NCBI GenBank assembly: GCA_001766825.1
Contig: LYOR01000002.1
Span: forward strand, 129,924 to 193,923
Length of the DNA stretch: 64,000 nt
Reading direction: 5' to 3'
DNA from: Candidatus Syntropharchaeum butanivorans
Lineage (GTDB): Archaea > Halobacteriota > Syntropharchaeia > Syntropharchaeales > Syntropharchaeaceae
Part shown: one piece after another, positions 3,001 through 25,474 of the stretch
How the letters are laid out: the number at the start of each line of letters is the position of its first letter
Position numbering within the stretch: the first letter of the stretch is position 1
Made by a program: the position numbers and the translations under genes
The notes under the pieces: generated by a model
What the model saw: the letters and a program-made list of their open reading frames with translations, nothing else
Told to the model about the DNA's origin: nothing
Databases searched by the model: none

Positions 3001-5660
3001 AGCACACCCTTTATCGAATCACCCCATATCCATGGAGTCCATCCAACGAAGCTCTCGTTGTAGCTTATTACAAGGTTCCCCCTCTTATCATAGATGCGGA
3101 GTGTAGAATTATCATGAAGCTCGGAAGATATGTAGAGCCTTATCGCTACCGCACCATCTTTCTCCATCACCTCGCTATCCATGCTCCATTCAGGATCGTA
3201 CCAGCCACGAAACATGGAAAGATATGCTCCGTTCTCGGATCTCTTTCTGCAATCATAAACCGCTAAGTTCGCATTATAAACCCCCATATCCCCCCTATTC
3301 TCAATCGTTGCGTTGATCTGGATCGTATCTCCTGCATCAACCCTGGATGGAACGGTCAGATTATCCACAGCAAGATCAGATGCGTTTATGTAGATCCACT
3401 CGGTGAGTTCATTATTGCTCTCATCACGCTCGAATACCCTGTTATCAAAATCAGCCTTAACGGTTAAACGATGCCCACCTCCAGCATCAACCCTCCATGG
3501 AATCTCCACGACCTCTGTATCATCTGCATCGATTAAGATCGTGGTATTGTTGAGTGGCAGATCATACCCATCAAGAAATAGACCCAGATCAACCAGTCCC
3601 CCTCTCACACCCTGATTTTTCACTGTTATCCTGAAGACTGCATCCTCTCCTACTCCAAGAGGAGGAATCGTTACGTTTTCTACATGAAAATCCCTGGAAG
3701 GATTCACGGTGACAGATCTCATTATCTCATTATTCGTGAGATCGGACTCGGGGTTATCACCCGGGTCAATCAAAACCCTTATCGTATGGTTCAGGCTATG
3801 TTTCTCACCATCCCATGTTCTCGCGTTCCAGGTGGCATTGACGATAATGCTATGATTCGCATCAAGCCCGGTGATGTTCTGGATATGGAAGGGTTCAGCC
3901 CCTGAATCATTGAAGAAGAGCACAGAGAAAGCATCTGCATCTTTTATTCCTAAATTCGCTATTCTGGTTGTGATCTTCAATGCATCAGAATCCCATACCT
4001 CACCCTCCATCAGGATTTCATCCACAGCAAGATCCGTGCCCCCCGTGATGAGACCCCTCCCAATCGTCCGGTTATTTACCTCAGCCCAGATCGTGTGCTC
4101 ACCCCTTTCTGTCTTCCATCTGATCGTTGTACCCTCGATCATGCCCGGGAGGACGGAGATTCTCTTCTCGGCGAGAGGTGTTCTGTATCCCAGCGTGATT
4201 CCATCATATCGCTTCCATCGGATCATGATATTCTCCCCTTCATACCATCCTGTCCATAGATCCTCAAGCCTCCCGCTATACTCCTCTACCAATCTCCCCT
4301 CTCCATCATAGACCCTGAGATAGTCCCCCGGATAGTACTGGCTCACATTTGCACTCTCGATATGAACCTGAATCGCAGATGCACCTGGAGATGATACGTT
4401 AATCACACCGATACTGGCACATGGGGCATAATGACTGCTATTCTTCCCTAAATAAAACCAGACAGTGCAGTTTTCACTCCTGTTTCCAGTATTCTTAACC
4501 ATGGCGGTTATATTCACCTCCTCACCAACCTCTGGATGTGCTGGTAGCATGGTGAGGTTGAGAAGATCAAGATCCGATGAGAGTTTAACCTTTATCGCTC
4601 TGGAAAGGGAGTTGTTCATCTCATCACACTCCGGGATATCATTATCAGGATCAAGCTCAACCGTTATTGTGTGGGTTGCACCTCTATTGAAGAAGTTCGT
4701 CCATGCACCCCACGCCGCAGAAGCATATCCTGTGCCATTGATGGTGACATTCTTTCGCTCAAAGGGGATACCATCGACCCTGAACTCAACGGCAACATCC
4801 CCTTTTCCATCCGCACCCCCTTCTGTGCATCTTATCGTTGCATTTACAAGAACATTCTCTCCTTCCAGGGGGTCTTCAGGTACAAAGCTTATATCTGTAA
4901 CCGCAAAGTCGAGCGCCCCCTTAACATGTATTCCTTCTGTCAATTCGTTGTTATCCTCGTTTATCTCCTCTACAGCATCATCCGGGTCAGCAATCACGGT
5001 TATATTGTGCTTACCCCGCATCACCTCAATGCTGAGTGTCTCATTCTGAATTTGAAGAGGTGTTGCGTTCCAGGTGACCGTGATAGGCATCGTCTCGTTC
5101 GCGTCAAGGGATATGTTCTCATCTGCGATCACAGCCTCATACCGTGTGTTCCAGTATGCAACATAACCGGACGTCGACCCAACAAAAGCGTGCACCCTGA
5201 TCGTATCCCCCTCAACCCATCTGCTCCAGGTATCAGACGGATTGGTTTCATCGATCCTCTCAACGAGGTTGCCTTTTCCATCGTAGATTTCAATGTAGGA
5301 ATATGTGCCTATGGATATACCATTCTCGAAAAATATTCTTATTCTACGAGCACCCGGATAGATGAAGGTGTCATCTGAGGTTGAACCATAGCCTGTAAGA
5401 TATCTCCACCCCCATACCTCTGAGATATTCTTCTCATCCCGAAACTCGAGATCGCAGGATGCGCTTCCATTCCCGATATTTGAGATATAAGCAGTTATCC
5501 TGTTTGTGTGATTTTCCATCGGATATGGCGGATCAAACACGATATCTGTTACTGTGAGATCGGCTCTTTCGGTCAGGCTCTCTCCAAATGCAACTCCAGT
5601 ATTTGCCATCTGAAGCGAGAGAGATAAAACCATCCAGAGTGCAAGTAGCTTGAGGTTCAT
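1..5660 (-). CDS. Very large secreted cell-surface protein with multiple CARDB-like repeats (N-terminal >1880 aa; ORF continues past the left edge)
   Basis: The minus frame is open from ATG at 5660-5658 to position 1. I hand-translated both ends. It is not in the ORF track because its stop is outside the window. The N-terminus MNLKLLALWMVLSLSLQMANTGVAFG looks like a signal peptide. CARDB-type end motifs recur, e.g. VIADPDDAVEEINEDNNEL (~4940-5000), VELDPDNDIPECDEMNN (~4600-4660), EVIADSDDAITETDEENNIA (~2461-2530) and VDPEERIPENDRENNYA (~1890-1940). The listed + strand ORFs here are low-complexity antisense shadows. Confidence 0.8.
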   Translation of the reverse strand, partial: MNLKLLALWMVLSLSLQMANTGVAFGESLTERADLTVTDIVFDPPYPMENHTNRITAYISNIGNGSASCDLEFRDEKNISEVWGWRYLTGYGSTSDDTFIYPGARRIRIFFENGISIGTYSYIEIYDGKGNLVERIDETNPSDTWSRWVEGDTIRVHAFVGSTSGYVAYWNTRYEAVIADENISLDANETMPITVTWNATPLQIQNETLSIEVMRGKHNITVIADPDDAVEEINEDNNELTEGIHVKGALDFAVTDISFVPEDPLEGENVLVNATIRCTEGGADGKGDVAVEFRVDGIPFERKNVTINGTGYASAAWGAWTNFFNRGATHTITVELDPDNDIPECDEMNNSLSRAIKVKLSSDLDLLNLTMLPAHPEVGEEVNITAMVKNTGNRSENCTVWFYLGKNSSHYAPCASIGVINVSSPGASAIQVHIESANVSQYYPGDYLRVYDGEGRLVEEYSGRLEDLWTGWYEGENIMIRWKRYDGITLGYRTPLAEKRISVLPGMIEGTTIRWKTERGEHTIWAEVNNRTIGRGLITGGTDLAVDEILMEGEVWDSDALKITTRIANLGIKDADAFSVLFFNDSGAEPFHIQNITGLDANHSIIVNATWNARTWDGEKHSLNHTIRVLIDPGDNPESDLTNNEIMRSVTVNPSRDFHVENVTIPPLGVGEDAVFRITVKNQGVRGGLVDLGLFLDGYDLPLNNTTILIDADDTEVVEIPWRVDAGGGHRLTVKADFDNRVFERDESNNELTEWIYINASDLAVDNLTVPSRVDAGDTIQINATIENRGDMGVYNANLAVYDCRKRSENGAYLSMFRGWYDPEWSMDSEVMEKDGAVAIRLYISSELHDNSTLRIYDKRGNLVISYNESFVGWTPWIWGDSIKGVLQKAEGHSWGGVGASTCEWLEGDEVWRGELNLSQGEVRNITCNITARAGVHLIGIALDPEDEIIEQHEVNNVEWREILVRGADLAADVSLVTDAIRHGEDVNITATIRNIGVFDASNFSLEILVDDFPLLSRDNLTLAPARSLNISVTWKAATGNHTVEVIADSDDAITETDEENNIAIREIWVDAADLNVSGISFTEPFDGDDVNITARIENQGVNRADNFSAIIFYEIEDLGEYNKADGTVGSGWIWINRSLEGAGCVILRIYYSRNIDGNVMVFDKDGVCVAAPSRDGWITVFGDEANVYFNKVSGVGIGMEFYAGNFKRYESLSLDANQSINLSMIQPVSTGNHTVMVLVDPEERIPENDRENNYAESTMAVEPSRDFTVGEIIFIKNGRAIGANDTIEDGERVTISASVRNQGIRDGTCDFDIIYESEWINITPGWVLTPSGYALVIAHPGCDGIRIHLDELALGYGGCVEARDDDGHLLWSRCHGGASDLTTPWFDTDKIYIYRAERLGSGQDYPYGRINPVIDRYQYRFVNRSSLYLPVNTTGYINTSWNVSWNPTVKVIADPDGVVGEIDEMNNGMEKVLNLTPVRDPEVLDISFNPANPVEGDDVLISATIRNSGCENATFTVEMWAELIEDYTIESGHGDEFPKGYFEWEVNKSYQDADWIGAHFKRIDTAEPDHYRTLFVDDGEDRRIGYFTFFEGGDIWTWACDDKIRIKTMKDEFHHVGVYGFKIDRLGYRYILNRTNLTLPPNGSCNITGELYNLTLGNRTSSYKVYVSVDRDNILYEVNEENNEREKVLWVHGPDLTVSGIEYNGTDTVAKIENVGIGNASNVTVRFLRDREYFLERSGTSLEDYLIQEADAECMRVHVKELNVTEGYNGYLKVGDLEYDYDRRDFWSPWITGNCTRLDWSSAYFIIDRYEYGIDEKLGNLSAGEVKGWAVPFDAVNEVYNLTVVCDPENDISESDEGNNAKGIEMGPDISVKIPPNENDFYLLV

Positions 5661-17337: not shown

Positions 17338-17411
17338 GAAAGATAAGGCACAATAATATGAAACAAAAGCCGGGATTCGTATGGTTAAAAGCCTTATGTT
17401 TCCGGAGAAGT

Positions 17412-18239
17412 ATGAAGAAGATTTTGATTGCAGGCACACGGGAGAAAGATGCCGGTAAGACAACAATTGCATGTGGGTTGCTATCGTATCTCAAAGAGAT
17501 AGGGATTGGAGCATGTGGATTTAAACCAAGGGCTGGAAACAGTATCTGGTATGATTTTGAGATTATTTATGAGGCTTTCAGTGAGAGGCGGTGCTACGGG
17601 AAGGATGCCCGGTTGTTAAGGTTGCACTCCGGAGTTGATTTACAGGAGGAGATAATAAACCCGGTACATCGACTCTGGGCAGAGCCACCATCTTTCATTG
17701 ATCATTTACAGCTTCCCCCGTTCATCTGTGATAGAGTGCGAACACCAGAGGGGGAGGATGTTTTCATAGTGAACGCGACACTACCATTTGCCCATGGAGC
17801 TGAAGACCTGCTAAGAAGGGTGGATAAGAAAATATACGTCTCACAGATGGGCGAGTTTAATCAGATAATATCACAGCTTTATGACCGTGCAACACATGCA
17901 GCGCACGAGACTATCTCAAATGTATCGGATGTGATCGTATATGAGAGCTATAGCGATATTGCACTGCCGTGGAAGGGTATCAAGGATCTCGATTTAGTTC
18001 TTGTGGTTGAACCCGGCCACATCTCGACATACGATCCGGAGCGATATCTTACTGCAGTACGTCTTGTAAATCGGAGAGAAATATCCACAAGAAGTGTTGT
18101 TGAGCTTTTAAAGCCGATTGAGACGGTGAGGATCCCACCATCCAGATCCAGGGAGATGATAAAGGTTGTCCAGGATAGGATCGATCTCTTACTGAAGAAG
18201 ACAGAGAGAAAATTGGATGATTGTGTAACTTTAACTTGA
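17412..18239 (+). CDS. P-loop NTPase, dethiobiotin-synthetase/CobQ-N-like (uncharacterised)
   Basis: MKKILIAGTREKDAGKTTIACGLL has a DTBS-like P-loop. The start is moved to the ATG at 17412. Confidence 0.45.
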   Translation: MKKILIAGTREKDAGKTTIACGLLSYLKEIGIGACGFKPRAGNSIWYDFEIIYEAFSERRCYGKDARLLRLHSGVDLQEEIINPVHRLWAEPPSFIDHLQLPPFICDRVRTPEGEDVFIVNATLPFAHGAEDLLRRVDKKIYVSQMGEFNQIISQLYDRATHAAHETISNVSDVIVYESYSDIALPWKGIKDLDLVLVVEPGHISTYDPERYLTAVRLVNRREISTRSVVELLKPIETVRIPPSRSREMIKVVQDRIDLLLKKTERKLDDCVTLT

Positions 18240-18788: not shown

Positions 18789-19649
18789 TTATACCCCCAA
18801 ACCCGATCTTATCCCATCAAAGACTGCCAGAAACTGCTCGCGCCATTCATCAATTACTTTGACAAATGGAACACCCCGGGAGTAACTTATGGCAATCTCC
18901 TTCATGTACGGGATCTCAAGAAGGATCTCAATCCCCTCATCTTTGCAGTAATCATAAACCCCTCTGTCACCCATACCGGACCGGTTCACAACAACCCCAA
19001 AGGGGATTCCAAGCTCCCTCATCACCCCAACAGCAAGCTTAAGATCGTACAACCCAAAAGGTGTTGGCTCTGTGACAAGGATGCAGTAATTGCTACCATA
19101 CACAGAATGGATTACAGGACATGAAACACCAGGCGGAGCGTCGATTATGACCGTTTTATCACCATTTAACTCTCTCTTAACAGCCTTTATCAGAAGACTT
19201 GGCATTGGCTCACCGATTGCAAGCTCCCCATAGACCAGATCAATCTCACCACACCGCCCCTTTATAATCCTCCCTATCTCCTTCTCACCCTCCCTGATTG
19301 CACCCTCAGGACATACAAGCACACATCCACCGCATCCATGACAGAGATTGGGAAACAGGATCGTATCACCCTTAAGCCCCTTCTCTGGATGGGGGCCTAT
19401 CACAAAAAGTGCATTGTACGCACAGAACTCGGCACATTTTCTACAGAAGCTGCATCTGCCCTTCTCAATCAGAGGTATCATCGATGAGACGCTCTTTATC
19501 TCTTTTATATCTGGTTTGAGGAAGATATGAGCATCCGGCTCCTCAACATCACAGTCAAGAAGCTGGGCATCTTCGATTGAGAGTGCAAGGTTGACTGCAA
19601 CCGTCGTCTTCCCGGTTCCCCCTTTCCCGGATGCAACAGAGATTATCAT
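18789..19649 (-). CDS. MinD/Mrp-type P-loop ATPase with inserted 2x[4Fe-4S] ferredoxin domain
   Basis: P-loop SGKGGTGKTT. Two cysteine clusters are present: CSFCRKCAEFC and CHGCGGCVLVCP. Confidence 0.8.
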   Translation of the reverse strand: MIISVASGKGGTGKTTVAVNLALSIEDAQLLDCDVEEPDAHIFLKPDIKEIKSVSSMIPLIEKGRCSFCRKCAEFCAYNALFVIGPHPEKGLKGDTILFPNLCHGCGGCVLVCPEGAIREGEKEIGRIIKGRCGEIDLVYGELAIGEPMPSLLIKAVKRELNGDKTVIIDAPPGVSCPVIHSVYGSNYCILVTEPTPFGLYDLKLAVGVMRELGIPFGVVVNRSGMGDRGVYDYCKDEGIEILLEIPYMKEIAISYSRGVPFVKVIDEWREQFLAVFDGIRSGLGV

Positions 19650-19652
19650 GGT

Positions 19653-20198
19653 CTAAAATAGTGGATGAATCTCGTAATATGCATCATCCATACCCGGCCT
19701 TATCCAGGGGCTTATGAGCCCTGCACCCTTGAGCTCTGCGATAAGCGCGCCTGCATCCCTGATCCCAAAACCAGACGCGATATCAGCGATCCTGCTTGCA
19801 GATATCTTTCCCGAGTCAGCAGATCTTCTGATCCTATCGAAAAGAGCGGGCATTATCCCGGACAGAGGATCTTCTATCATTCTGAAGTACTCCCTTATCG
19901 CATACTCCCTATCCCACACACCTGTCTCTACTGCCCTCATCAGAGCAATCCTCACAACATTGGGGATGCTGTATCTACCCCCAAATGAGCGTTCACCACT
20001 CTTCCACGAGAGGCTTTCACCATCAGCCACGATGAGCCTTAAACCCTCTGCCTCGAGTATAACCTCATCTGTCTCCTCCCCAAAGATCTGCTCTATCTCC
20101 TCATGGGTGATTCCGTCCTCTATCGAGTGAAGAAGTGCAGAAATCTCCCTGAAGGACGCTGTAAATCCCCTTAATGCATCTTCAAGTCTGCCTGTCAT
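19653..20198 (-). CDS. Hypothetical protein (~181 aa), operon member
   Basis: The ORF is co-directional and its stop lies 3 nt before the MinD-Fd start. The start is uncertain: ATG at 20198, 20228 or 20273. I recognise no family. Confidence 0.4.
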   Translation of the reverse strand: MTGRLEDALRGFTASFREISALLHSIEDGITHEEIEQIFGEETDEVILEAEGLRLIVADGESLSWKSGERSFGGRYSIPNVVRIALMRAVETGVWDREYAIREYFRMIEDPLSGIMPALFDRIRRSADSGKISASRIADIASGFGIRDAGALIAELKGAGLISPWIRPGMDDAYYEIHPLF

Positions 20199-20469
20199 CA
20201 ATCCCCATCCTGACCCTGTATCCACCATCCTCACTGAAGCTGAGAATGAGGTATGCGCTCCTCCCTCTCCCAATCTCGTCTTCTATCATACTTCGGTATG
20301 CAGGAAGGTTCTCATCCTCAAGAAATCTAAGAAGAATCTCTATCTCCTCTTCTGACTCCCTATCTTCACACCCTGATACCATATACCTATCAACAGCCTT
20401 CCAGTACCGCCTTCTGGCAACAGTCTCGACACACAGGCCTCGTTCTGGCTTTATGATAAGTTCTTTCAT
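20182..20469 (-). CDS. Hypothetical protein (95 aa), operon member
   Basis: ATGA overlap with the upstream NifX-like stop (20466-20469). I recognise no family. Confidence 0.4.
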   Translation of the reverse strand: MKELIIKPERGLCVETVARRRYWKAVDRYMVSGCEDRESEEEIEILLRFLEDENLPAYRSMIEDEIGRGRSAYLILSFSEDGGYRVRMGIDDRQT

Positions 20470-20834
20470 ATCATACCGTGCCTGTGTTCCCTGCAGGCGT
20501 ACTCATAGCTTGCCGGCATGAGCCGCCCTTCCTGCCATGATCTTATCGCATCTCTCACTCTTCCAGACGCGCCGATATAGACCTCAATCCCAAACCTCTC
20601 AAACATACCTATCGCCCTTGGACCAAGCCCTGAACAGAGCATAACTTCAACCCCCTCTTTCGAGAGCATCTCTGGGGGATATCCGACACCTCCGAAGTGC
20701 TCGCTTGTATTTGATACCACCTTAACCTCTCCGCTCTCAAGATCAAGAATCGTGAACGTCGGCGCACGTCCAAAGTGCTCACATACTATATCATCCAGTC
20801 CGGCATCCCCATAGGTAGGCACACACACCTTCAT
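20466..20834 (-). CDS. NifX/NifB-C-terminal-like (dinitrogenase FeMo-cofactor biosynthesis fold) protein
   Basis: MKVCVPTYGDAGLDDIVCEHFGRAPTFTILDLESGEV...GVEVMLCSGLGPRAIGMFERFGIEVY matches the family pattern. A GGAGGTGA SD precedes the ATG at 20834. Confidence 0.75.
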   Translation of the reverse strand: MKVCVPTYGDAGLDDIVCEHFGRAPTFTILDLESGEVKVVSNTSEHFGGVGYPPEMLSKEGVEVMLCSGLGPRAIGMFERFGIEVYIGASGRVRDAIRSWQEGRLMPASYEYACREHRHGMI

Positions 20835-20839
20835 CAAGC

Positions 20840-21277
20840 TCACCTCCCAATCCTTCCTTCTAACCATCCGATCTTGACATCATCCACACCATCAAACGCA
20901 GGCACAAACGGCTTTATATCAATGAGTGGTGTTCCATCAACGAGATCTAACCCTCTAACCTTAAGTACATTATCCATCCTCTCAAGAAGCCTCACGATGG
21001 AGAGGCCTATGGGGTTTGGTCGATGTGGGGATCTTGTCGCAAAGACCCCATGCGGCCTTGCGTCCCATGGCGTTCTCACCATAAGTTTATACCCATCCGA
21101 TCTATCCAGCCAACAGAGAAGGATCAGATGCGAGAATCCCTCAACATCGGTTAACCCTTCCTCAAACTCCCTGAAGACCTCAACCTCACCTACCGTATCT
21201 GTGCCTGCACCCTGACGTGGACACTCAAGAACTGTCTTATAAGGGGTGTGGATTGTCCCGATCGGTTCAACCTCCAC
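20840..21277 (-). CDS. TsaA/TrmO-like (UPF0066) SAM-dependent methyltransferase-fold protein
   Basis: IGTIHTPYK...CPRQG...GFSHLILLCW...GVFATRSPHRPNPIGLSIVRLL...LDLVDGTPLIDIKP. Confidence 0.75.
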   Translation of the reverse strand: MEVEPIGTIHTPYKTVLECPRQGAGTDTVGEVEVFREFEEGLTDVEGFSHLILLCWLDRSDGYKLMVRTPWDARPHGVFATRSPHRPNPIGLSIVRLLERMDNVLKVRGLDLVDGTPLIDIKPFVPAFDGVDDVKIGWLEGRIGR

Positions 21278-21713
21278 CCTTTCTCCTCCTGTAATCTGCT
21301 ATCGCCTCTTTGAGTGTGTTTACCGCAAGCACAGGGCAGTGGAGATGTTCTTCTGGGAGATCACCAAGAACCGAGAGTATCTCCTCATCGTTGAGCCGGG
21401 ATGCCTCCTCGACCGTCTTACCCCTGATGAGCTCAGTCAGCACAGAGCCACATGCAATCGTGGGTCCACACCCATCTGTGAGAAACCTGGCCTCGATGAT
21501 CCTCTCATCCTCAATCTTGAGGTATATCTCCATCGTATCACCGCATGGACCTGTTATCCGCGAAGCCCCATCCGGATCTTCGATCATCCCCACATTCTTC
21601 GGGTTCAAAGCCTCCTCAACCACCCGTTCACTGAAAATCTCCAGCGCATCTCGGATTATTGCCTGCTGAATATCATCCACAAGCTCATCGAGAGTTGAGA
21701 CTTTCTCGGCCAT
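21267..21713 (-). CDS. NifU-N/IscU-like Fe-S cluster scaffold protein
   Basis: Conserved cysteines in GPCGD, GCGPTIACGS and HLHCPVLA. I chose the ATG at 21713 (MAEKVSTLDEL); the track starts at TTG 21752. Confidence 0.75.
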   Translation of the reverse strand: MAEKVSTLDELVDDIQQAIIRDALEIFSERVVEEALNPKNVGMIEDPDGASRITGPCGDTMEIYLKIEDERIIEARFLTDGCGPTIACGSVLTELIRGKTVEEASRLNDEEILSVLGDLPEEHLHCPVLAVNTLKEAIADYRRRKGGG

Positions 21714-21741
21714 CGCAACACCACGTGAAAGCTTCAACTCC

Positions 21742-22101
21742 CTACTTTCCAAGCTCCTCCAGCCGCTTTTTTATCTCTGCAAGCCGTTGCTCTATCATCC
21801 TCGCCTCTGCTTCGAGCATCTGGATCTCCTGCCCCTCTGTGAAAGTACCCGGGCCAAAGAACGGCGCAGAGAAAGCACCAAAACGAGGTCTAAAGTCCCT
21901 GCATGCCTCACTCATGGGATCTACCTCTTTATCCTTGAGAGAGCATCTGTTGGGTGGGACAAAGTATGCACAGGCACCGTGTGTGGCAGGAGGTACCTGT
22001 ACTCCTGGAGATACCCCTCCCCAGCCGGGAGAGTAACCAAATCTCATCCAGCCTGGGAGCCCTGTCATGTAGTACATATTTCTCCATCTGTATCCTGCCA
22101 T
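21742..22101 (-). CDS. DUF5320-like small protein, paralog a (aromatic/Gly/Pro-rich N-half, coiled-coil tail)
   Basis: MAGYRWRNMYYMTGLPGWMRFGYSPGW... and ...EIQMLEAEARMIEQRLAEIKKRLEEL. A GGAGGTGATGAGAAG SD is identical to that of paralog b. Confidence 0.7.
   Translation of the reverse strand: MAGYRWRNMYYMTGLPGWMRFGYSPGWGGVSPGVQVPPATHGACAYFVPPNRCSLKDKEVDPMSEACRDFRPRFGAFSAPFFGPGTFTEGQEIQMLEAEARMIEQRLAEIKKRLEELGK
21751..21832. repeat. 82-bp direct repeat copy A (coiled-coil coding tail)
   Basis: Identical to 22556-22637 except for one mismatch (21811 t versus 22616 c). Confidence 0.9.
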
Positions 22102-22117
22102 CTTCTCATCACCTCCT
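22074..22117. repeat. 44-bp direct repeat (SD + first 9 codons) copy A
   Basis: acatatttctccatctgtatcctgccatcttctcatcacctcct is identical to 22825-22868. Confidence 0.9.
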
Positions 22118-22123
22118 TTTTCT

Positions 22124-22291
22124 TTACGGTCTTACCATCCTTGATCCACACTTCGGACAGATCTCTTCATAGCACGGTACACCACGCTTGTGTGGAACGG
22201 TGGTTCCACAGCTTGGACACTTACACTCACCCCCGGGTCCAAGCCCTCTTCCACCCATTCTCCCCCGTCCTCCTCTACCCATTCCTGCCAT
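22124..22291 (-). CDS. Small (55 aa) Gly/Arg-rich zinc-ribbon protein, not in ORF track
   Basis: Hand translation codon by codon gives MAGMGRGGRGRMGGRGLGPGGECKCPSCGTTVPHKRGVPCYEEICPKCGSRMVRP*. It has two CxxC pairs. Its ATG (22291-22289) directly abuts the TGA (22294-22292) of the upstream ORF in the same frame. Its stop is 22 nt before the paralog a start. Confidence 0.65.
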   Translation of the reverse strand: MAGMGRGGRGRMGGRGLGPGGECKCPSCGTTVPHKRGVPCYEEICPKCGSRMVRP

Positions 22292-22468
22292 TCAGTACCA
22301 CCACCTGTACCAGTACAGGTGCCAGTATGGCAGGGGCATACCATACCAGGTGGTGCCGAACCCATAACCTCTCCACCACCACCTGGGAAGCCAGGGGAAT
22401 ACCCTGCAGAATGGATAGGGGTTGCCCCTCCACCCTCTTGCAGGCCACCAGAATCCTCTTCCAAACAC
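22292..22468 (-). CDS. Trp/Tyr/Arg/Gly/Pro-rich small protein (58 aa)
   Basis: VFGRGFWWPARGWRGNPYPFCRVFPWLPRWWWRGYGFGTTWYGMPLPYWHLYWYRWWY has 12 Trp in 58 residues. A GGAGGTGA SD lies 5 nt before GTG 22468. An alternative +1 frame (22132-22464) is also open, so the frame call is tentative. Confidence 0.4.
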   Translation of the reverse strand: MFGRGFWWPARGWRGNPYPFCRVFPWLPRWWWRGYGFGTTWYGMPLPYWHLYWYRWWY

Positions 22469-22546
22469 TTTTATCACCTCCTCAATCTACCAATACCAAA
22501 CCTCGTGTCAACCTCTCAGGATCGCCGGCCACCGCCGGAGAGATTC

Positions 22547-22852
22547 TCATCCTTTAAGCTCCTCCAGCCGCTTTTTTATCTCTGCAAGCCGTTGCTCTAT
22601 CATCCTCGCCTCTGCCTCGAGCATCTGGATCTCCTGCTCCTTTGTCACCCCTGCAGGCGCCATTGGTACCGCTGGTGGAGCCCACCCTGGAGCCTGCTGC
22701 TGCATCCACGCCATAAACCCGGGAATCTGCCCGGTCTGGCTCAGATACTGAGCCGCTGGAGGTAACCCTCCCCAGCCTGGAGAATAACCAAACCTCACCC
22801 ATCCAGGCAATCCTGTAAGGTAATACATATTTCTCCATCTGTATCCTGCCAT
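22547..22852 (-). CDS. DUF5320-like small protein, paralog b
   Basis: MAGYRWRNMYYLTGLPGWVRFGYSPGW...EIQMLEAEARMIEQRLAEIKKRLEELKG. Its 5' 44 nt and 3' 82 nt are (near-)identical to paralog a. Confidence 0.7.
   Translation of the reverse strand: MAGYRWRNMYYLTGLPGWVRFGYSPGWGGLPPAAQYLSQTGQIPGFMAWMQQQAPGWAPPAVPMAPAGVTKEQEIQMLEAEARMIEQRLAEIKKRLEELKG
22556..22637. repeat. 82-bp direct repeat copy B
   Basis: See copy A. Its first 28 nt recur at 23375-23402. Confidence 0.9.
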
Positions 22853-22868
22853 CTTCTCATCACCTCCT
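22825..22868. repeat. 44-bp direct repeat copy B
   Basis: Identical to 22074-22117. Confidence 0.9.
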
Positions 22869-23369
22869 GATCCTCTTTTTTATATCCTCAAGCTCATCTT
22901 CAAGCCTCTTTACCCGTTCAAGCAGATCATCCACATCTCTGCTTGCCATAGATGCCTGCTGCTCGATGTTAACCCTTCTACCCATCCCGCGCGTTCCAGG
23001 AGAGGTCCCCATCCCGAAGTGCCCCGGGACTGTTGCACCACCGGTCTCAAGAAGCTCCCCACGCTTATACATGTCGATTGCATCCCTGACCGTACCGTAG
23101 GCACCTGTTACAACCTTCACACCCGCAGCAGATAGTGTCTGGAACGCATTTGGTCCGATGTTCCCAGAGATGAGCACGTCCACACCTTTATTGACGATTG
23201 TCTGCGCTGCCTGAATCCCTGCACCACTTGCAGCCCCCACACTCTCATTGGGAACTGCCTCAAACGCCATGGTATCCGGATCAACGATCACAAAGTACCC
23301 GCATCTTCCAAACCTCGGGTCAACCTCTGCGTCAAGATCGCCGGCCACCGCGGTCACACATATCTTCAT
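22860..23369 (-). CDS. NifX/NifB-C-like protein fused to a Gly/Arg linker and DUF5320-like coiled-coil tail
   Basis: The N-terminal ~115 aa is MKICVTAVAGDLDAEVDPRFGRCGYFVIVD...GVDVLISGNIGPNAFQTLSAAGVKVV. The tail is GHFGMGTSPGTRGMGRR...DVDDLLERVKRLEDELEDIKKRIRR. ATGA overlap with the upstream stop. Confidence 0.75.
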   Translation of the reverse strand: MKICVTAVAGDLDAEVDPRFGRCGYFVIVDPDTMAFEAVPNESVGAASGAGIQAAQTIVNKGVDVLISGNIGPNAFQTLSAAGVKVVTGAYGTVRDAIDMYKRGELLETGGATVPGHFGMGTSPGTRGMGRRVNIEQQASMASRDVDDLLERVKRLEDELEDIKKRIRR

Positions 23370-23602
23370 CCTTTAAGCTCCTCCAGCCGCTTTTTTATCT
23401 CTCCAACCCGCTCTTCAAGGACCTTAAGCTCTCTCTCAAGAGCCTCTCTCTCATCCGACGGGCTTGGCCAGCCATATGGATATGGCATCACCTCATAGGG
23501 TTCTGGTATCCAGAGCCATGCATGAGGGCCAAACCCACACCTGCAAGGACCTCTTACCCAGACCACCCACATCACCTCAAGTGAATATACATTCATAATC
23601 AC
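23366..23602 (-). CDS. DUF5320-like small protein, paralog c (divergent aromatic N-half, same coiled-coil tail)
   Basis: ...MWVVWVRGPCRCGFGPHAWLWIPEPYEVMPYPYGWPSPSDEREALERELKVLEERVGEIKKRLEELKG. The last 28 nt of coding sequence are identical to paralogs a and b. The start may be the ATG at 23572 rather than 23602. Confidence 0.55.
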   Translation of the reverse strand: MIMNVYSLEVMWVVWVRGPCRCGFGPHAWLWIPEPYEVMPYPYGWPSPSDEREALERELKVLEERVGEIKKRLEELKG

Positions 23603-24010
23603 TTAAACCTTTCGGTGGGGTGGGCCTCTTCCCCCCTCCCGGGCCACGGAGGATACGCTTATACCACCACATATGGGACACCTCTCAAGAGGAGCTCCCC
23701 ACTCACTTCTGCAGTCATAACAGAGGTTTCTGAATCTGTAGTCCCCTCCACTCACCCGTATAGCCTTTCCATCAACAAGGGCCTCTGCTACCTTTCTTCG
23801 GGCCTCTTTCAGGATCCTGTGAAACGTCGGCTGGGAGATATCCATCAGCTTAGCTGCCTCGATCTGATCGAGTTGGAGAAGGTCCTTGAGCCTCAGACTC
23901 TCAAGCTCCTCTATCTTAAGCACGATCTCCCCCTTTGCCCTCCCCCCTGGCCTGAAGTACCTGAAATCAGGATGAAAGCCCACCCGTCTGCATCGCCTCG
24001 GTCTCGGCAT
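23603..24010 (-). CDS. DUF134 (UPF0251) putative DNA-binding protein with C-terminal zinc ribbon
   Basis: MPRPRRCRRVGFHPDFRYFRPGG is a DUF134 signature. An HTH-like segment is QIEAAKLMDISQPTFHRILKEARRKV. The C-terminus has CYDC...CPICGG. I chose the ATG at 24010. Confidence 0.75.
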   Translation of the reverse strand: MPRPRRCRRVGFHPDFRYFRPGGRAKGEIVLKIEELESLRLKDLLQLDQIEAAKLMDISQPTFHRILKEARRKVAEALVDGKAIRVSGGDYRFRNLCYDCRSEWGAPLERCPICGGISVSSVAREGGRGPPHRKV

Positions 24011-24133
24011 ATATGAATTTATATCCATAATAGCATTAAAGCTTGTCCCGGGTCTCTTCAGAAGCGTGTTTCAGGGTGAAGCCAGTAAACTTCTTAGGCT
24101 ACCATGCAGTAAGAAGATGGGGAGAGCTGGTCC
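24011..24133. promoter_or_regulatory. Divergent promoter region between the DUF134 operon and the PurM-like gene
   Basis: 123-bp gap. On the minus strand a TATA-like ttaatgctattat lies ~25-35 nt upstream of ATG 24010, which would give a short-leader or leaderless mRNA. Confidence 0.3.
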
Positions 24134-25474
24134 ATGGATCTTGAAGGGTATGCTAAAAGGATGCTCAGAGAGGGTATTGACCGGGAGGTTATCAAAGAAA
24201 AGCTTTTTCAGCGGGTTATTGAGGTAAAAAGAGATCGTATAGGTGAAGAAGAGGCGATAAATCTTGTTGAGGCCGTGATCAGGGAGGCATCCCTGACACT
24301 TGAACCCGGAGATGACCTGCTGAAATTCCCGGTCTCAGGCGTTACGATGGGGGAGCTTGGGGTTGGGTCAAGAGGCAGTGGAGATTTTTACTTCCATGAG
24401 AAGATAGGAGAGCTTCTGGGGGAGGGAGGGGCACTTATCGATTCGAGCATGCTTGATGATTCAGGTGTTGTTAAAGCCCGAGGTGAGCTGATTGTTCTCA
24501 CCGTTGATGGAATACACTCACGGCTCAGCGATTTTCCATTTATCGCAGGCTTTCACGTGGCCCGTGCAGCGCTCAGAGACATCTATGCTATGGGAGGGGT
24601 GCCGGTCGCTCTTGCATCAGATATACATCTCGCAGATGATGGTGATATCGGAAAGGTACTCGATCATATAGGGGGTATCGCGGCGGTATCAGAGCTTACG
24701 GGGGTCCCGCTCATAACAGGGAGTACGCTCAGAATCGGTGGTGATATGGTCATAGGAGATCGGATGACAGGTGCGGTTACAGCAGTCGGTATTGCAGATG
24801 TGATTACACCGAGAAAAGAGGCCAGAATCGGGGATCTGATCCTGATGAGTGAGGGTGCGGGTGGGGGGACGATTTCCACAGCGGCTCTCTACCATGGGGA
24901 GGAGGAGGTTGTCTGGGAGACGATGAATGTGAAGTTTATCGATGCATGCAGAACGCTCATCGATCATGGGCTTCTCAGTGAGATTCATTCGATGACCGAT
25001 GTTACAAATGGCGGAATAAGAGGGGATGCTGCTGAGATCGCAAAGGTTGCAGGGGTTAAGCTCCGCTTCTATGAGGATAAAATCAGATCGCTCGTAAACC
25101 CACGCGTTCTCAAACTTCTTGAAAAGTACGAGATAGACTATCTTGGGGTATCTCTTGATGCACTTCTTGTGATATGCCCTGAGGATGTTGCAGATCGCGT
25201 GCTTGGGACTGTGCGGGCTGCAGGTGTTAGAATGGACATTGTCGGAGAGGTTATCGAGGGCAAGGGATCAAGAATCGTTATAGACGGTGAGGAGCGGGAT
25301 TTTTCCCCAAAATTCAGGGAATCTGCCTACACACCCATCAAGAAGGTCGTTGGGGAAAGGGCATCTCGTGACTTTGAAGAGATGAAACGGAGTGTTGATC
25401 GGGTGGCAGGAGAAGTAAGAAGGAAGAAGGATTGGGTTGTTCGCAGGATCAGGGAGGCGAAAAATGGTTTATGA
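24134..25474 (+). CDS. AIR synthase-related protein (PurM/HypE/ThiL/SelD superfamily)
   Basis: LDDSGVV...DGIHS..., DIYAMGGVPVALASDI and MTDVTNGGIRGD are PurM-superfamily N- and C-domain motifs. Confidence 0.7.
   Translation: MDLEGYAKRMLREGIDREVIKEKLFQRVIEVKRDRIGEEEAINLVEAVIREASLTLEPGDDLLKFPVSGVTMGELGVGSRGSGDFYFHEKIGELLGEGGALIDSSMLDDSGVVKARGELIVLTVDGIHSRLSDFPFIAGFHVARAALRDIYAMGGVPVALASDIHLADDGDIGKVLDHIGGIAAVSELTGVPLITGSTLRIGGDMVIGDRMTGAVTAVGIADVITPRKEARIGDLILMSEGAGGGTISTAALYHGEEEVVWETMNVKFIDACRTLIDHGLLSEIHSMTDVTNGGIRGDAAEIAKVAGVKLRFYEDKIRSLVNPRVLKLLEKYEIDYLGVSLDALLVICPEDVADRVLGTVRAAGVRMDIVGEVIEGKGSRIVIDGEERDFSPKFRESAYTPIKKVVGERASRDFEEMKRSVDRVAGEVRRKKDWVVRRIREAKNGL

What the first reader, a model, noticed from the sequence alone, without database searches (positions are those of the whole stretch)
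22124..22291. Hidden 55-aa Gly/Arg-rich zinc-ribbon ORF, in frame with and abutting the upstream ORF across a single TGA
This ORF is below the 60-aa track threshold. Its translation is MAGMGRGGRGRMGGRGLGPGGECKCPSCGTTVPHKRGVPCYEEICPKCGSRMVRP. It combines a disordered RG/GG-type N-terminus with a 4-Cys ribbon. Its ATG (22291-22289) follows the TGA (22294-22292) of the Trp-rich ORF with zero spacing and in the same reading frame. Stop-codon readthrough would therefore give one 114-aa Trp-rich + RG-rich + ribbon protein. Termination-reinitiation would give two peptides in fixed stoichiometry. Either way, standard gene callers could easily miss it.
Basis: seen in the sequence. Interest (0 to 1): 0.65.

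Follow-up and report, generated by a model that had tools for sequence, protein, structure and literature searches.

The report
Small Cys6-His metal-binding protein gene
The 55-residue ORF is a real, conserved small metal-binding protein that sits almost everywhere beside NifX-like iron-sulfur genes, and it is made as its own protein, coupled to the Trp-rich gene upstream, with no sign of stop-codon readthrough.

Summary
ORF 22124-22291(-) exists, and its ATG directly follows the TGA of a Trp-rich ORF.

Both ORFs are genuine genes. The ribbon has 65 close homologues and 2,235 representative clusters. The Trp-rich peptide has 481 homologues. pN/pS against the nearest relative is 0.10 and 0.27.

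Three parts of the interpretation need correcting:
- The module has six invariant Cys plus one invariant His (C-x-C-x2-C-x5-H-x5-C-x4-C-x2-C), not four Cys.
- "In frame" follows automatically from zero spacing.
- The ORF is not hidden: its exact sequence is already in the public protein collection, and NCBI annotates the Syntropharchaeales orthologue pair as two genes.

Readthrough is not supported. The sister lineage uses TAA. Ten other archaeal loci have a 1-nt spacer and two a 4-nt spacer, which changes the frame. No fused protein was found among 334 relatives. TGA ends 20 of the 47 long ORFs in the window.

A NifX-like gene lies within 1.5 kb in 68 of 80 loci. The module is fused elsewhere to NifX-like, DUF134, CDF-transporter, rhodanese and ferredoxin domains. 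Pfam and NCBIfam have no model for it.

Most likely it is an accessory metal or Fe-S-binding subunit of an IssA/ORP-like system. The Trp-rich peptide would then act as a free-standing version of the IssA tail. That function is inferred, not shown.

The parts
22124..22291 (-). Gene for the 55-aa RG-leader + Cys6-His small protein (stop TAA at 22124-22126)
   Evidence: sequence; 65 homologues; pN/pS 0.10 against L006; 2,235 representative clusters at E<=1e-3.
22229..22291 (-). Codons 1-21: Gly/Arg-rich cationic leader (11 Gly, 4 Arg, 0 acidic, pI 12)
   Evidence: composition; pLDDT about 51 for residues 1-20; many homologues begin MPRGDGTGP...GRG, and 6 of 65 members hit PF17253 (DUF5320).
22127..22228 (-). 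Codons 22-55: Cys6-His module, C-x-C-P-x-C-G-x4-H-x5-C-x4-C-P-K-C-G, with two CPxCG knuckles plus C23, H34 and C40
   Evidence: invariant columns G18 C23 C25 C28 H34 P39 C40 C45 P46 C48; pLDDT 83-90; only generic zinc-ribbon or rubredoxin-knuckle fold matches.
22292..22294 (-). TGA stop codon of the Trp-rich gene, directly abutting the ATG of the ribbon gene
   Evidence: the orthologous junction in L006 and L081 uses TAA.
22298..22306 (-). AGGTGGTGG, a Shine-Dalgarno-like sequence for the ribbon gene, lying inside the last codons (R-W-W) of the Trp-rich gene
   Evidence: AGGTGG or GGTGG sits about 6-12 nt before the ribbon ATG in nearly all Trp-rich-to-ribbon junctions; spaced genes of the operon carry GGAGGTGAT.
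22292..22477 (-). Gene for the Trp-rich cationic peptide (61 aa from GTG 22477; more likely 58 aa from GTG 22468). Conserved core GNPYPFCRxFPWLPRWWW
   Evidence: orthologues in 15 loci; 481 family members; pN/pS 0.27; pI 10.4, 41% aromatic, 0 acidic; mean pLDDT 49, predicted mostly disordered.
22474..22481 (-). GGAGGTGA Shine-Dalgarno sequence of the Trp-rich gene, 5 nt before GTG 22468
   Evidence: sequence; same motif before the other spaced genes of the operon.
22547..22852 (-). Upstream DUF5320 paralogue (aromatic/Gly N-terminus plus coiled coil)
   Evidence: PF17253, 29.5 bits; its ends form direct repeats with 21742-22101.
21742..22101 (-). Downstream DUF5320 paralogue carrying an inserted Cys3 motif
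   Evidence: PF17253, E 9e-5; the Cys motif is 46% identical (E 4e-6) to the N-terminal module of the ribbon-fused protein P0229.
22860..23369 (-). NifX-like (Nitro_FeMo-Co) protein with a DUF5320-type coiled-coil tail; the likely functional partner
   Evidence: PF02579, E 4e-26; a NifX-like gene lies within 1.5 kb of the ribbon in 68 of 80 loci, and on the same strand in 70 of 71.
23603..24028 (-). DUF134 (predicted HTH) protein, first gene of the operon, with its own CxxC...CxxC tail
   Evidence: PF02001, E 1e-25; the ribbon module is fused to the C-terminus of DUF134 in 10 of 80 loci.
18789..19649 (-). MinD/ParA-type P-loop ATPase with an inserted 2x[4Fe-4S] ferredoxin domain (same architecture as Orp3/Orp4)
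   Evidence: PF01656, PF10609 and Fer4 families; present in 61 of 80 loci, on the same strand in 60.
20466..21752 (-). Rest of the operon: NifU_N scaffold (21267-21752), TrmO-like (20840-21277) and a second NifX-like gene (20466-20867), with 11- and 28-nt overlaps
   Evidence: Pfam; junction spacings.

Best explanation
**What it is (shown).** Two separate small genes lie in a tightly packed operon with this order: DUF134, DUF5320, NifX-like, DUF5320, Trp-rich peptide, Cys6-His protein, DUF5320, NifU, TrmO-like, NifX-like, two ORFs without a Pfam family (20182-20469, 19653-20273), MinD/[4Fe-4S] ATPase. The window comes from an archaeon related to Ca. Syntrophoarchaeum.

**How the ribbon gene is translated (inferred).** It is translated from its own ATG. 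Initiation is helped by an AGGTGG Shine-Dalgarno-like sequence inside the last codons of the Trp-rich gene, and by ribosomes terminating at the abutting stop codon. This is ordinary translational coupling and would give roughly matched amounts of the two peptides.

**The product (shown).** It belongs to a widespread family with no Pfam or NCBIfam model. It has a cationic, disordered Gly/Arg leader followed by a compact module with six invariant Cys and one invariant His.

**How it most likely works (inferred).**
- The two CPxCG knuckles (C25, C28, C45, C48) form a rubredoxin- or zinc-ribbon-type M(Cys)4 site.
- C23, H34 and C40 form a second, coordinatively incomplete site. A site like that suits holding or passing on a metal ion or a small Fe-S unit.
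- The protein acts as an accessory subunit of the neighbouring NifX-like, MinD-type Fe-S system. That system is related in gene content to the IssA thioferrate store and to the Desulfovibrio ORP complex.
- The Trp-rich peptide and the RG leader provide in trans the cationic, aromatic, glycine-rich and disordered chemistry that the IssA C-terminal tail provides in cis to wrap anionic iron-sulfide.
For: **Real genes.**
- Ribbon: 65 homologues with invariant Cys6-His.
- Ribbon: 2,235 representative clusters at E<=1e-3, 761 of them at E<=1e-10.
- Ribbon: 273 species-level genomes matched by one peptide pattern alone.
- Trp-rich family: 481 members.
- Both show purifying selection, with pN/pS 0.10 and 0.27 at pS about 0.7.

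**Separate genes, coupled.**
- NCBI calls them as two genes.
- Junction spacing is 0, 1 or 4 nt in 15 archaeal loci, with AGGTGG upstream of the ATG.
- Other junctions in the operon are -28, -11, -11, -4, -4, 0, +3 and +7 nt.

**Link to NifX and Fe-S genes.**
- A NifX-like gene lies within 1.5 kb in 68 of 80 loci, on the same strand in 70 of 71.
- MinD/Fer4 occurs in 61 loci, DUF134 in 38, DUF5320 in 31, CDF in 14 and NifU in 11.

**Natural fusions of the module.**
- NifX-like domains (P0252, P0280, P0311, P0318).
- Rhodanese plus NifX (P0189).
- PDZ plus NifX (P0186, P0187).
- Cation_efflux plus ZT_dimer (P0306).
- DUF134 (10 loci).
- 4Fe-4S ferredoxins (P0239, P0287, P0250, P0310).
- An RnfB-type FeS domain (P0274).

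**IssA analogy.**
- The IssA tail is cationic, aromatic (Trp) and Gly-rich, unstructured, has pI 10.7, and is proposed to wrap thioferrate (PMC5524996).
- The Trp-rich peptide has pI 10.4, 41% aromatic residues, 0 acidic residues and mean pLDDT 49.
- The Trp-rich family is itself fused to DUF5320 coiled coils and to 2x[4Fe-4S] ferredoxins.

**ORP analogy.** The ORP complex is described as a NifX-like orange protein, two ATPases carrying [4Fe-4S] motifs, and a small [2Fe-2S]-binding protein (PMC6345978). One search confirms the same ATPase architecture in the window.
Against: - No biochemical or expression data exist for any member. The bound metal (Zn, Fe or an Fe-S cluster) is unknown.
- The two-site reading of the seven ligands comes from motif logic only. 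I had no model coordinates.
- The IssA parallel rests on composition and context, not homology. The window's own NifX-like protein has a coiled-coil tail, not a Trp-rich one.
- Fusions to DUF134 (a predicted DNA binder), and signal-peptide proteins with tandem modules (P0192, P0196, P0216, P0222), show the module is used in several settings. A purely structural or sensing role would fit equally well.
- The AGGTGG motif is confounded with conservation of the C-terminal Arg-Trp codons.
- Only two independent lineages have the exact zero-gap junction. L081 is about 98% identical to L006.
Confidence: 0.6

Rival explanations
1. Regulatory module. The Cys6-His protein is a metal- or Fe-S-sensing (or DNA/RNA-binding) partner of the DUF134 helix-turn-helix protein. 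It would work in trans here and in cis where the two are fused, and would tune transcription of the operon to iron-sulfur status.
For: - The module is fused to the C-terminus of DUF134 in 10 of 80 loci and in several representatives (P0218, P0221, P0230, P0231, P0282, P0288).
- DUF134 is in the neighbourhood in 38 of 80 loci, always on the same strand.
- The window's DUF134 protein has its own CxxC...CxxC tail.
- RG-rich leaders and zinc ribbons often bind nucleic acids (general knowledge).
Against: - Linkage to NifX-like genes (71 of 80 loci) is much stronger than to DUF134 (38 of 80).
- Fusions to a CDF transporter, rhodanese+NifX, PDZ+NifX and ferredoxins, and secreted tandem-repeat forms, are hard to explain by DNA binding.
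- The function of DUF134 is itself untested.
Confidence: 0.2
2. A generic structural zinc-ribbon micro-protein of the archaeal C(P)XCG type. It would bind one Zn and serve as a small adaptor, for example with the ribosome or RNA polymerase, with no specific role in Fe-S handling. The extra Cys and His would only stabilise the fold.
For: - It is 55 aa with two CPxCG motifs.
- The best fold and sequence resemblances are to RpoP/Rpb12, the adenylate-kinase lid, rubredoxin and HVO_2753-like proteins.
- C(P)XCG micro-proteins are numerous in archaea (PMC11241148, PMC10716476).
Against: - All those matches are non-significant (Foldseek E>=0.47; PDB hmmsearch E>=0.02; NCBIfam RpoP 23.9 bits against a cut-off of 63).
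- Three further ligand-type residues are invariant across bacteria and archaea.
- The gene neighbourhood is extremely specific.
- The module occurs in many fusions with metal and Fe-S proteins.
Confidence: 0.12
3. Programmed readthrough or recoding of the TGA, producing a single Trp-rich + RG + ribbon protein of 114-117 aa.
For: - The two ORFs abut in frame in the window and in the sister lineage L006/L081.
- TGA is generally the leakiest stop codon (general knowledge).
Against: - The sister lineage has TAA.
- Ten other archaeal loci have a 1-nt spacer and two a 4-nt spacer, so the frames differ.
- No fused orthologue was found among the 334 relatives retrieved.
- TGA terminates 20 of the 47 long ORFs in the window.
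- An SD-like motif precedes the ATG.
- No Rfam element was found in 20000-24500. The only fold I ran, on the spacer upstream of the Trp-rich gene (22465-22560), was unremarkable. The TGA-ATG junction itself was not folded.
Confidence: 0.03

Closest known systems
IssA (PF2025) iron-sulfur storage protein of Pyrococcus furiosus and its 'IssA clade' (PMC5524996)
   Same: - A NifX-like (IPR003731 / PF02579) protein lies next door.
- Cationic, Trp/aromatic- and Gly-rich, disordered sequence is present, with pI about 10.5 (Trp-rich peptide) against 10.7 (IssA tail).
- It occurs in anaerobes.
- The proposed role is in holding anionic iron-sulfide and supplying Fe-S clusters.
   Different: - Here the tail-like chemistry sits on separate small polypeptides (the Trp-rich peptide and the RG leader), not on the NifX-domain protein.
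- No sequence homology to the IssA tail was tested or shown.
- IssA has one Cys in its tail, whereas this protein has a Cys6-His module that IssA lacks.
- No thioferrate data exist.
ORP (orange protein) complex and orp gene cluster of Desulfovibrio (Orp3/4/5/8/9; PMC6345978)
   Same: - The gene content matches: a NifX-like 'Di-Nase' protein, MinD/Mrp-type ATPases with two [4Fe-4S] motifs, and a small Cys-containing partner reported to bind [2Fe-2S].
- It is specific to anaerobes.
   Different: - Homology between this protein and Orp5/Dde_3197 could not be tested, because no sequence was available to me. From memory, Orp5 may instead be the DUF134 component.
- No sigma-54 regulator is present here.
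- This operon adds DUF5320 paralogues, NifU and TrmO.
Archaeal C(P)XCG zinc-finger micro-proteins (Haloferax volcanii HVO_2753, HVO_0758 and others; PMC11241148, PMC10716476)
   Same: - It is under 70 aa.
- It has two CPxCG knuckles.
- It has a predicted zinc-ribbon or rubredoxin-knuckle fold.
   Different: - There is no significant sequence relationship (E 0.047 to an HVO_2753-like chain).
- It has three additional invariant ligands (C-x-C, His, Cys).
- It has an RG leader.
- It is distributed in bacteria as well as archaea.
- It has a fixed Fe-S gene neighbourhood.
DUF5320 (PF17253)
   Same: - Many homologues of both small proteins start with the MPRGDGTGP...GRG-type N-terminus. Six of 65 ribbon homologues hit PF17253.
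- Several Trp-rich family members hit PF17253.
- Three DUF5320 paralogues sit in the same operon.
   Different: - The window's two peptides do not reach the Pfam threshold.
- They lack the C-terminal coiled coil that gives the window's DUF5320 paralogues their Pfam match.

Membership tests
Programmed stop-codon readthrough / Sec recoding site | The identity of the recoded stop codon is conserved in orthologues | tested here: not met
   TGA in the window, TAA in L006 and L081, and TAA or TGA elsewhere.
Programmed stop-codon readthrough / Sec recoding site | The downstream ORF stays in frame with the upstream ORF across orthologues | tested here: not met
   It is in frame only in the Syntrophoarchaeum lineage. 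Spacing is 1 nt in L007, L008, L019, L021, L040, L044, L045, L049, L071 and L073 (L007, and L045 which lies outside the core-motif table, were read by eye), and 4 nt in L030 and L059.
Programmed stop-codon readthrough / Sec recoding site | Some orthologues encode the fused product with a sense codon | tested here: not met
   No protein contains both motifs among the 334 retrieved relatives or the 80 loci.
Programmed stop-codon readthrough / Sec recoding site | A stimulatory RNA element (SECIS or readthrough structure) | tested here: inconclusive
   There are no Rfam hits in 20000-24500. No dedicated archaeal SECIS search was made, and the junction itself was not folded.
C(P)XCG zinc-finger micro-proteins | [quoted passage not shown] | tested here: met
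   55 aa, with CPSCG (25-29) and CPKCG (45-49).
C(P)XCG zinc-finger micro-proteins | Binds one zinc ion | not testable with these tools
   Needs metal analysis of purified protein.
C(P)XCG zinc-finger micro-proteins | Sequence or structural homology to a characterised member | tested here: inconclusive
   PDB hmmsearch E 0.047 to an HVO_2753-like chain. Foldseek E 1.6 to 6ydh.
DUF5320 (PF17253) | Pfam profile match above the gathering score (27 bits) | tested here: not met
   Neither the 55-aa nor the 61-aa protein hits PF17253. Only 6 of 65 ribbon homologues hit it at E<=0.01.
IssA-type thioferrate storage protein | NifX-like IPR003731 / PF02579 domain in the polypeptide | tested here: not met
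   It is absent from both small proteins. It is present in the neighbouring genes 22860-23369 and 20466-20867.
IssA-type thioferrate storage protein | Cationic, aromatic (Trp), Gly-rich, unstructured tail with high pI | tested here: met
   Trp-rich peptide: pI 10.4, 24 of 58 residues aromatic, 8 Gly, 7 Arg, 0 acidic; pLDDT 49. RG leader: pI 12. The criteria come from PMC5524996. The feature is on a separate polypeptide.
IssA-type thioferrate storage protein | Binds thioferrate and forms Fe-S nanoparticles | not testable with these tools
   Needs XAS, TEM or Moessbauer on native or reconstituted protein.
ORP (orange protein) cluster | NifX-like protein plus MinD/Mrp ATPase(s) with [4Fe-4S] motifs in one cluster | tested here: met
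   PF02579 twice. PF01656/PF10609 plus Fer4 in 18789-19649.
ORP (orange protein) cluster | The small protein is homologous to Orp5/Dde_3197 ([2Fe-2S] binding) | not tested
   The sequence was not obtainable. PMC3133258 is not held, and no text hit for Dde_3197 was found.

The most novel reading that the evidence does not exclude
The Cys6-His module, its RG leader and the free-standing Trp-rich peptide are the dispersed parts of a modular iron-sulfide storage and hand-over system that is widespread in anaerobic bacteria and archaea, including alkane- and methane-oxidising archaea. In this reading, disordered cationic and aromatic micro-proteins wrap anionic Fe-S polymer made on NifX-like domains, as the IssA tail is proposed to do in cis. 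The Cys6-His module nucleates or extracts clusters through a coordinatively incomplete Cys2-His site, and passes them to MinD-type carriers, CDF exporters or DUF134 regulators.
Probability: 0.25. Interest if true: 0.7.

Novelty: new variant of a known kind. Interest (0 to 1): 0.42.

Why it matters
How strict anaerobes store and traffic iron and sulfur is poorly understood. This includes methanogens and alkane- or methane-oxidising archaea, which have very high Fe-S demand. IssA and the ORP complex are the only characterised entry points.

This analysis defines two small-protein families that have no Pfam or NCBIfam model and no matching solved structure:
- a Cys6-His module with an RG leader, with 2,235 representative clusters;
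- a Trp-rich cationic peptide, with 481 members.

Both are locked into that gene neighbourhood and repeatedly fused to its domains. They are concrete, cheap targets, at 55 and 58 residues, for anaerobic metal-binding and interaction experiments.

The analysis also removes a tempting but unsupported recoding story. It flags a real annotation problem too: ribbon ORFs that are over-extended through an alternative frame of the Trp-rich gene.

Tried and rejected
- **Genome scan with the full alignment A1:** Solved with the 37-column core alignment A2.
- **Single-sequence search with the Trp-rich peptide:** no candidates in the word index. Solved by using a 14-sequence alignment built from the related loci.
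- **The look-up of encoding contigs for the window's own protein:** not on record. I used the orthologue P0002 instead.
- **Fold search against PDB and profile search of PDB sequences:** only generic, non-significant zinc-ribbon or rubredoxin-knuckle matches, so neither gives a functional assignment.
- **Pfam and NCBIfam on both peptides:** only sub-threshold generic zinc-ribbon hits. The NCBIfam RpoP hit scored 23.9 bits against a cut-off of 63 and was rejected.
- **RNA explanations:** Rfam found nothing in 20000-24500. The 69-nt spacer upstream of the Trp-rich gene folds no better than shuffled sequence (z = +1.04).
- **Orp5/Dde_3197 homology:** I could not get the sequence or the original papers, so this is left untested.
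- **Literature on DUF5320 and DUF134:** no functional studies.
- **RiPP-precursor idea:** considered and dropped. No maturase is conserved nearby, and the module occurs inside large multidomain proteins.
- **Sec recoding:** dropped because the orthologue has TAA.
- **Long antisense ORFs on the + strand (21787-22557 and 22190-22765):** treated as spurious, because the minus-strand frames show purifying selection and homology.
- **L081 as a third zero-gap case:** rejected as independent evidence, because it is about 98% identical to L006.
Full report
**1. The observation**

- On the minus strand, 22124-22291 encodes MAGMGRGGRGRMGGRGLGPGGECKCPSCGTTVPHKRGVPCYEEICPKCGSRMVRP.
- The upstream ORF (22292-22477) ends ...YWYRWWY-TGA. 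The ATG follows with no spacer.
- Two points need qualifying. An ATG that abuts a stop codon is automatically in frame, so 'in frame' adds nothing to 'zero spacing'. The peptide also has six cysteines, not four.
- The Trp-rich ORF most probably starts at the second GTG (22468), giving 58 aa. That GTG has a GGAGGTGA Shine-Dalgarno sequence 5 nt upstream. The same motif precedes the other spaced genes of the operon.

**2. Both ORFs are real genes**

A 55-aa ORF alone is not evidence. One search lists 110 ORFs of at least 30 aa in 11 kb.

- Ribbon peptide:
  - It has 65 homologues of 53-89 aa (E down to 1e-20), including its own exact sequence.
  - Their alignment has invariant G18, C23, C25, C28, H34, P39, C40, C45, P46 and C48.
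  - The family consensus is GRGR..GGFGLGPGGxCxCPxCGxxxPHQRGVPCYxxKCPKCGSxMTR.
  - An exhaustive profile search found 2,235 representative clusters at E<=1e-3, 761 of them at E<=1e-10.
  - One peptide pattern alone recovered the module in 273 species-level genomes of anaerobic bacteria and archaea.
- Trp-rich ORF:
  - It has a conserved core, GNPYPFCRxFPWLPRWWW.
  - Its family has 481 members.
- Comparison with the nearest relative (L006, Ca. Syntrophoarchaeum; about 73-76% nucleotide identity, measured against the ~98% identical L081):
  - pN/pS is 0.10 for the ribbon and 0.27 for the Trp-rich gene.
  - Synonymous divergence is nearly saturated, at pS about 0.7.
- No Pfam or NCBIfam model covers either peptide. 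No solved structure is related.

**3. Readthrough or two proteins?**

The junction was compared across every locus that has both genes.

| Loci | Junction | Frame |
|---|---|---|
| Window | TGA + 0 nt | in frame |
| L006, L081 (same lineage as each other, 98% identical) | TAA + 0 nt | in frame |
| L007, L008, L019, L021, L040, L044, L045, L049, L071, L073 (ANME-1/Methanophagales, Methanosarcinales and related MAGs) | TAA + 1 nt + ATG | ribbon in +1 frame |
| L030, L059 | TGA + 4 nt | out of frame |

- L007 was read by eye, because the script picked an upstream ATG there. L045 lies outside the core-motif table and was read.
- Neither the stop codon nor the frame relationship is conserved. What is conserved is very tight spacing, and an AGGTGG or GGTGG motif about 6-12 nt before the ribbon ATG.
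- No protein among the 334 retrieved relatives of either family contains both motifs.
- TGA ends 20 of the 47 long ORFs in the window, so it is an ordinary stop codon there.
- NCBI annotates the orthologous pair as two genes, of 60 aa and 58 aa.
- The other junctions in the operon are -28, -11, -11, -4, -4, 0, +3 and +7 nt. Zero spacing is therefore typical packing in this operon.
- Conclusion: these are two proteins with ordinary translational coupling. Conserved programmed readthrough is rejected. Low-level leakiness at this TGA cannot be excluded, and nothing supports it.

**4. Anatomy of the ribbon protein**

- Residues 1-21 are a Gly/Arg leader with 11 Gly, 4 Arg, no acidic residue and pI 12. 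It is predicted to be disordered, with pLDDT about 51.
- Many homologues carry a longer leader that begins MPRGDGTGP...GRG. Six of the 65 family members hit the DUF5320 profile.
- Residues 22-55 fold confidently (pLDDT 83-90) into a short beta-rich knuckle domain.
- Foldseek returns only generic zinc-ribbon or rubredoxin-knuckle folds: the adenylate-kinase lid, rubredoxin, RpoP/Rpb12 and desulforedoxin. None is significant, with the best E at 0.47.
- The two CPxCG knuckles (C25, C28, C45, C48) account for one M(Cys)4 site.
- C23, H34 and C40 are equally invariant and are left over. I infer that they form a second, incomplete site.

**5. Context**

*In the window.* The minus-strand operon runs in this order:
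- DUF134 (23603-24028)
- DUF5320-like (23366-23602)
- NifX-like with a coiled-coil tail (22860-23369)
- DUF5320 (22547-22852)
- Trp-rich peptide
- ribbon
- DUF5320 with a Cys3 insert (21742-22101)
- NifU_N (21267-21752)
- TrmO-like (20840-21277)
- NifX-like (20466-20867)
- two unknown ORFs
- MinD/ParA ATPase with a 2x[4Fe-4S] insert (18789-19649)

*Across the 80 related loci.*

| Neighbour | Loci with it (of 80) | Same strand as the ribbon |
|---|---|---|
| NifX-like | 71 (68 within 1.5 kb; median distance 363 nt) | 70 |
| MinD/Fer4 | 61 | 60 |
| DUF134 | 38 | 38 |
| DUF5320 | 31 | 31 |
| Trp-rich gene | 15 | 15 |
| CDF transporter | 14 | 14 |
| NifU | 11 | 11 |

*Natural fusions of the module.*
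- NifX-like domains.
- Rhodanese plus NifX.
- PDZ plus NifX, with up to five module copies.
- Cation_efflux plus ZT_dimer.
- The C-terminus of DUF134 (10 loci).
- 4Fe-4S ferredoxins.
- An RnfB-type Fe-S domain, which explains the stray 'RnfB' names given in JGI.
- Signal-peptide proteins with two or three tandem modules.

The Trp-rich family is itself fused to DUF5320 coiled coils or to N-terminal 2x[4Fe-4S] ferredoxins.

**6. Mechanism**

*Shown:* two conserved, co-oriented, tightly coupled small genes. One encodes a Cys6-His module that is nearly always next to, and often fused with, NifX-like and other metal or Fe-S domains.

*From the literature:*
- IssA is a NifX-domain protein whose C-terminal tail is cationic, aromatic (Trp) and Gly-rich, and unstructured. 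It has pI 10.7 and is proposed to wrap anionic thioferrate. IssA can rebuild [4Fe-4S] ferredoxin (PMC5524996).
- IssA homologues are common in Methanosarcinales and their relatives (PMC8351635).
- The Desulfovibrio ORP complex combines a NifX-like orange protein, MinD-like ATPases with [4Fe-4S] motifs, an Mrp-NifX fusion, and a small protein whose homologue binds [2Fe-2S] (PMC6345978).

*Inferred:*
- The Trp-rich peptide has pI 10.4, 41% aromatic residues, 0 acidic residues and pLDDT 49. Together with the RG leader, it would supply IssA-tail chemistry in trans.
- The Cys6-His module would bind a metal in the knuckle site, and would use C23/H34/C40 to hold or pass on Fe or Fe-S units in complex with the NifX-like and MinD-type proteins.
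- Coupled translation would keep the two peptides in step.

*Confidence by level:*
- About 0.9: these are separate, real genes whose products belong to this Fe-S-type neighbourhood.
- About 0.5: the function is metal or Fe-S handling rather than regulation or structure.
- About 0.25: the specific IssA-tail and thioferrate picture is right.

**7. Rivals**

- A DUF134-linked sensor or regulator (0.2) is supported by the DUF134 fusions. It is weakened by the stronger NifX linkage and by the transporter, rhodanese and secreted fusions.
- A generic structural C(P)XCG zinc micro-protein (0.12) fits the size and motifs. It does not explain the three extra invariant ligands or the fixed neighbourhood.
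- Readthrough fusion (0.03): see section 3.
- A spurious ORF is excluded.

**8. Comparison with what is known, and novelty**

- The protein works like, and looks like, a C(P)XCG zinc-ribbon micro-protein. It has no significant sequence relationship to any characterised member of that group.
- Its context matches IssA and ORP-type systems. It lacks the NifX domain that defines IssA. Its relationship to Orp5/Dde_3197 could not be tested.
- Pfam and NCBIfam have no model for it, and public annotations of its homologues are 'hypothetical protein' or a stray 'RnfB' name.
- I therefore rate it a new variant of a known kind: a widespread, undescribed Cys6-His small-protein and domain family tied to NifX-like genes.
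- The eye-catching feature that prompted the finding, the in-frame TGA junction, is ordinary operon packing.

**9. Verdict**

The ORF is a real ribbon micro-protein and coupling is plausible. Readthrough is not supported, and the ligand count was wrong.
- Interest is moderate (0.42). The recoding angle has gone. What remains are two uncharacterised, very widespread small-protein families in an under-studied anaerobic Fe-S system, which are worthwhile experimental targets.

Noticed in passing
window 21751-21840 / 22556-22645 and 22005-22117 / 22756-22868: The Trp-rich/ribbon gene pair is bracketed by two DUF5320 paralogues whose 3' and 5' ends form direct repeats. One is 90 nt at 97% identity and the other 113 nt at 88%. 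This suggests a recent duplication or gene conversion around the pair.
   Followed up: partly
window 21742-22101 (-), residues 39-73: The downstream DUF5320 paralogue carries a Cys3 insert (ATHGACAYFVPPNRCSLKDKEVDPMSEACRDF). It is 46% identical (E 4e-6) to the N-terminal module of P0229. That module is fused to a ribbon in P0229, P0234 and P0269. It may be a second unnamed Cys module of the same system.
   Followed up: partly
L007 ~1400-1750; L059 ~3700-4110; protein P0325: In several ANME-1 and Methanosarcinales loci the ribbon frame stays open far upstream, across the Trp-rich gene in an alternative frame. Gene callers can therefore produce over-long 'proteins' of 127-137 aa and may lose the Trp-rich gene.
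   Followed up: partly
proteins P0192, P0196, P0216, P0222: These proteins have an N-terminal signal-peptide-like segment followed by two or three tandem copies of the Cys6-His module. That implies some versions act outside the cytoplasm.
   Followed up: no
L003 ~3509; L035 ~3385; L072; L074 ~4016; protein P0306: CDF-type cation-efflux transporters (Cation_efflux + ZT_dimer) carry the module at their cytoplasmic C-terminus. They often sit next to a DUF134-ribbon fusion in DPANN-type archaeal MAGs.
   Followed up: partly
window 23603-24028 (-): The DUF134 protein has its own C-terminal CxxC...CxxC tail (CYDCRSEWGAPLERCPICGG). In other genomes the Cys6-His module occupies that position.
   Followed up: no
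window 21787-22557 (+) and 22190-22765 (+): Long antisense ORFs of 256 and 191 aa run opposite the operon. They have no homology support and are probably artefacts of the Gly/Arg/Trp codon bias on the coding strand.
   Followed up: no
window 20840-21277 (-): A TrmO-like (tRNA methyltransferase O N-terminal domain) gene is embedded in the Fe-S operon, with 11- and 28-nt overlaps to its neighbours. A TrmO-like gene is also present in 5 of 80 related loci, on the same strand in 3 and at a median distance of about 3.4 kb.
   Followed up: no
window 19653-20273 (-), 20182-20469 (-), 17358-18239 (+): Three ORFs near or in the operon have no Pfam family and no counterpart in the 80 related loci. Two of them (19653-20273 and 20182-20469) overlap each other by 92 nt, so at least one start or one ORF is doubtful.
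   Followed up: no
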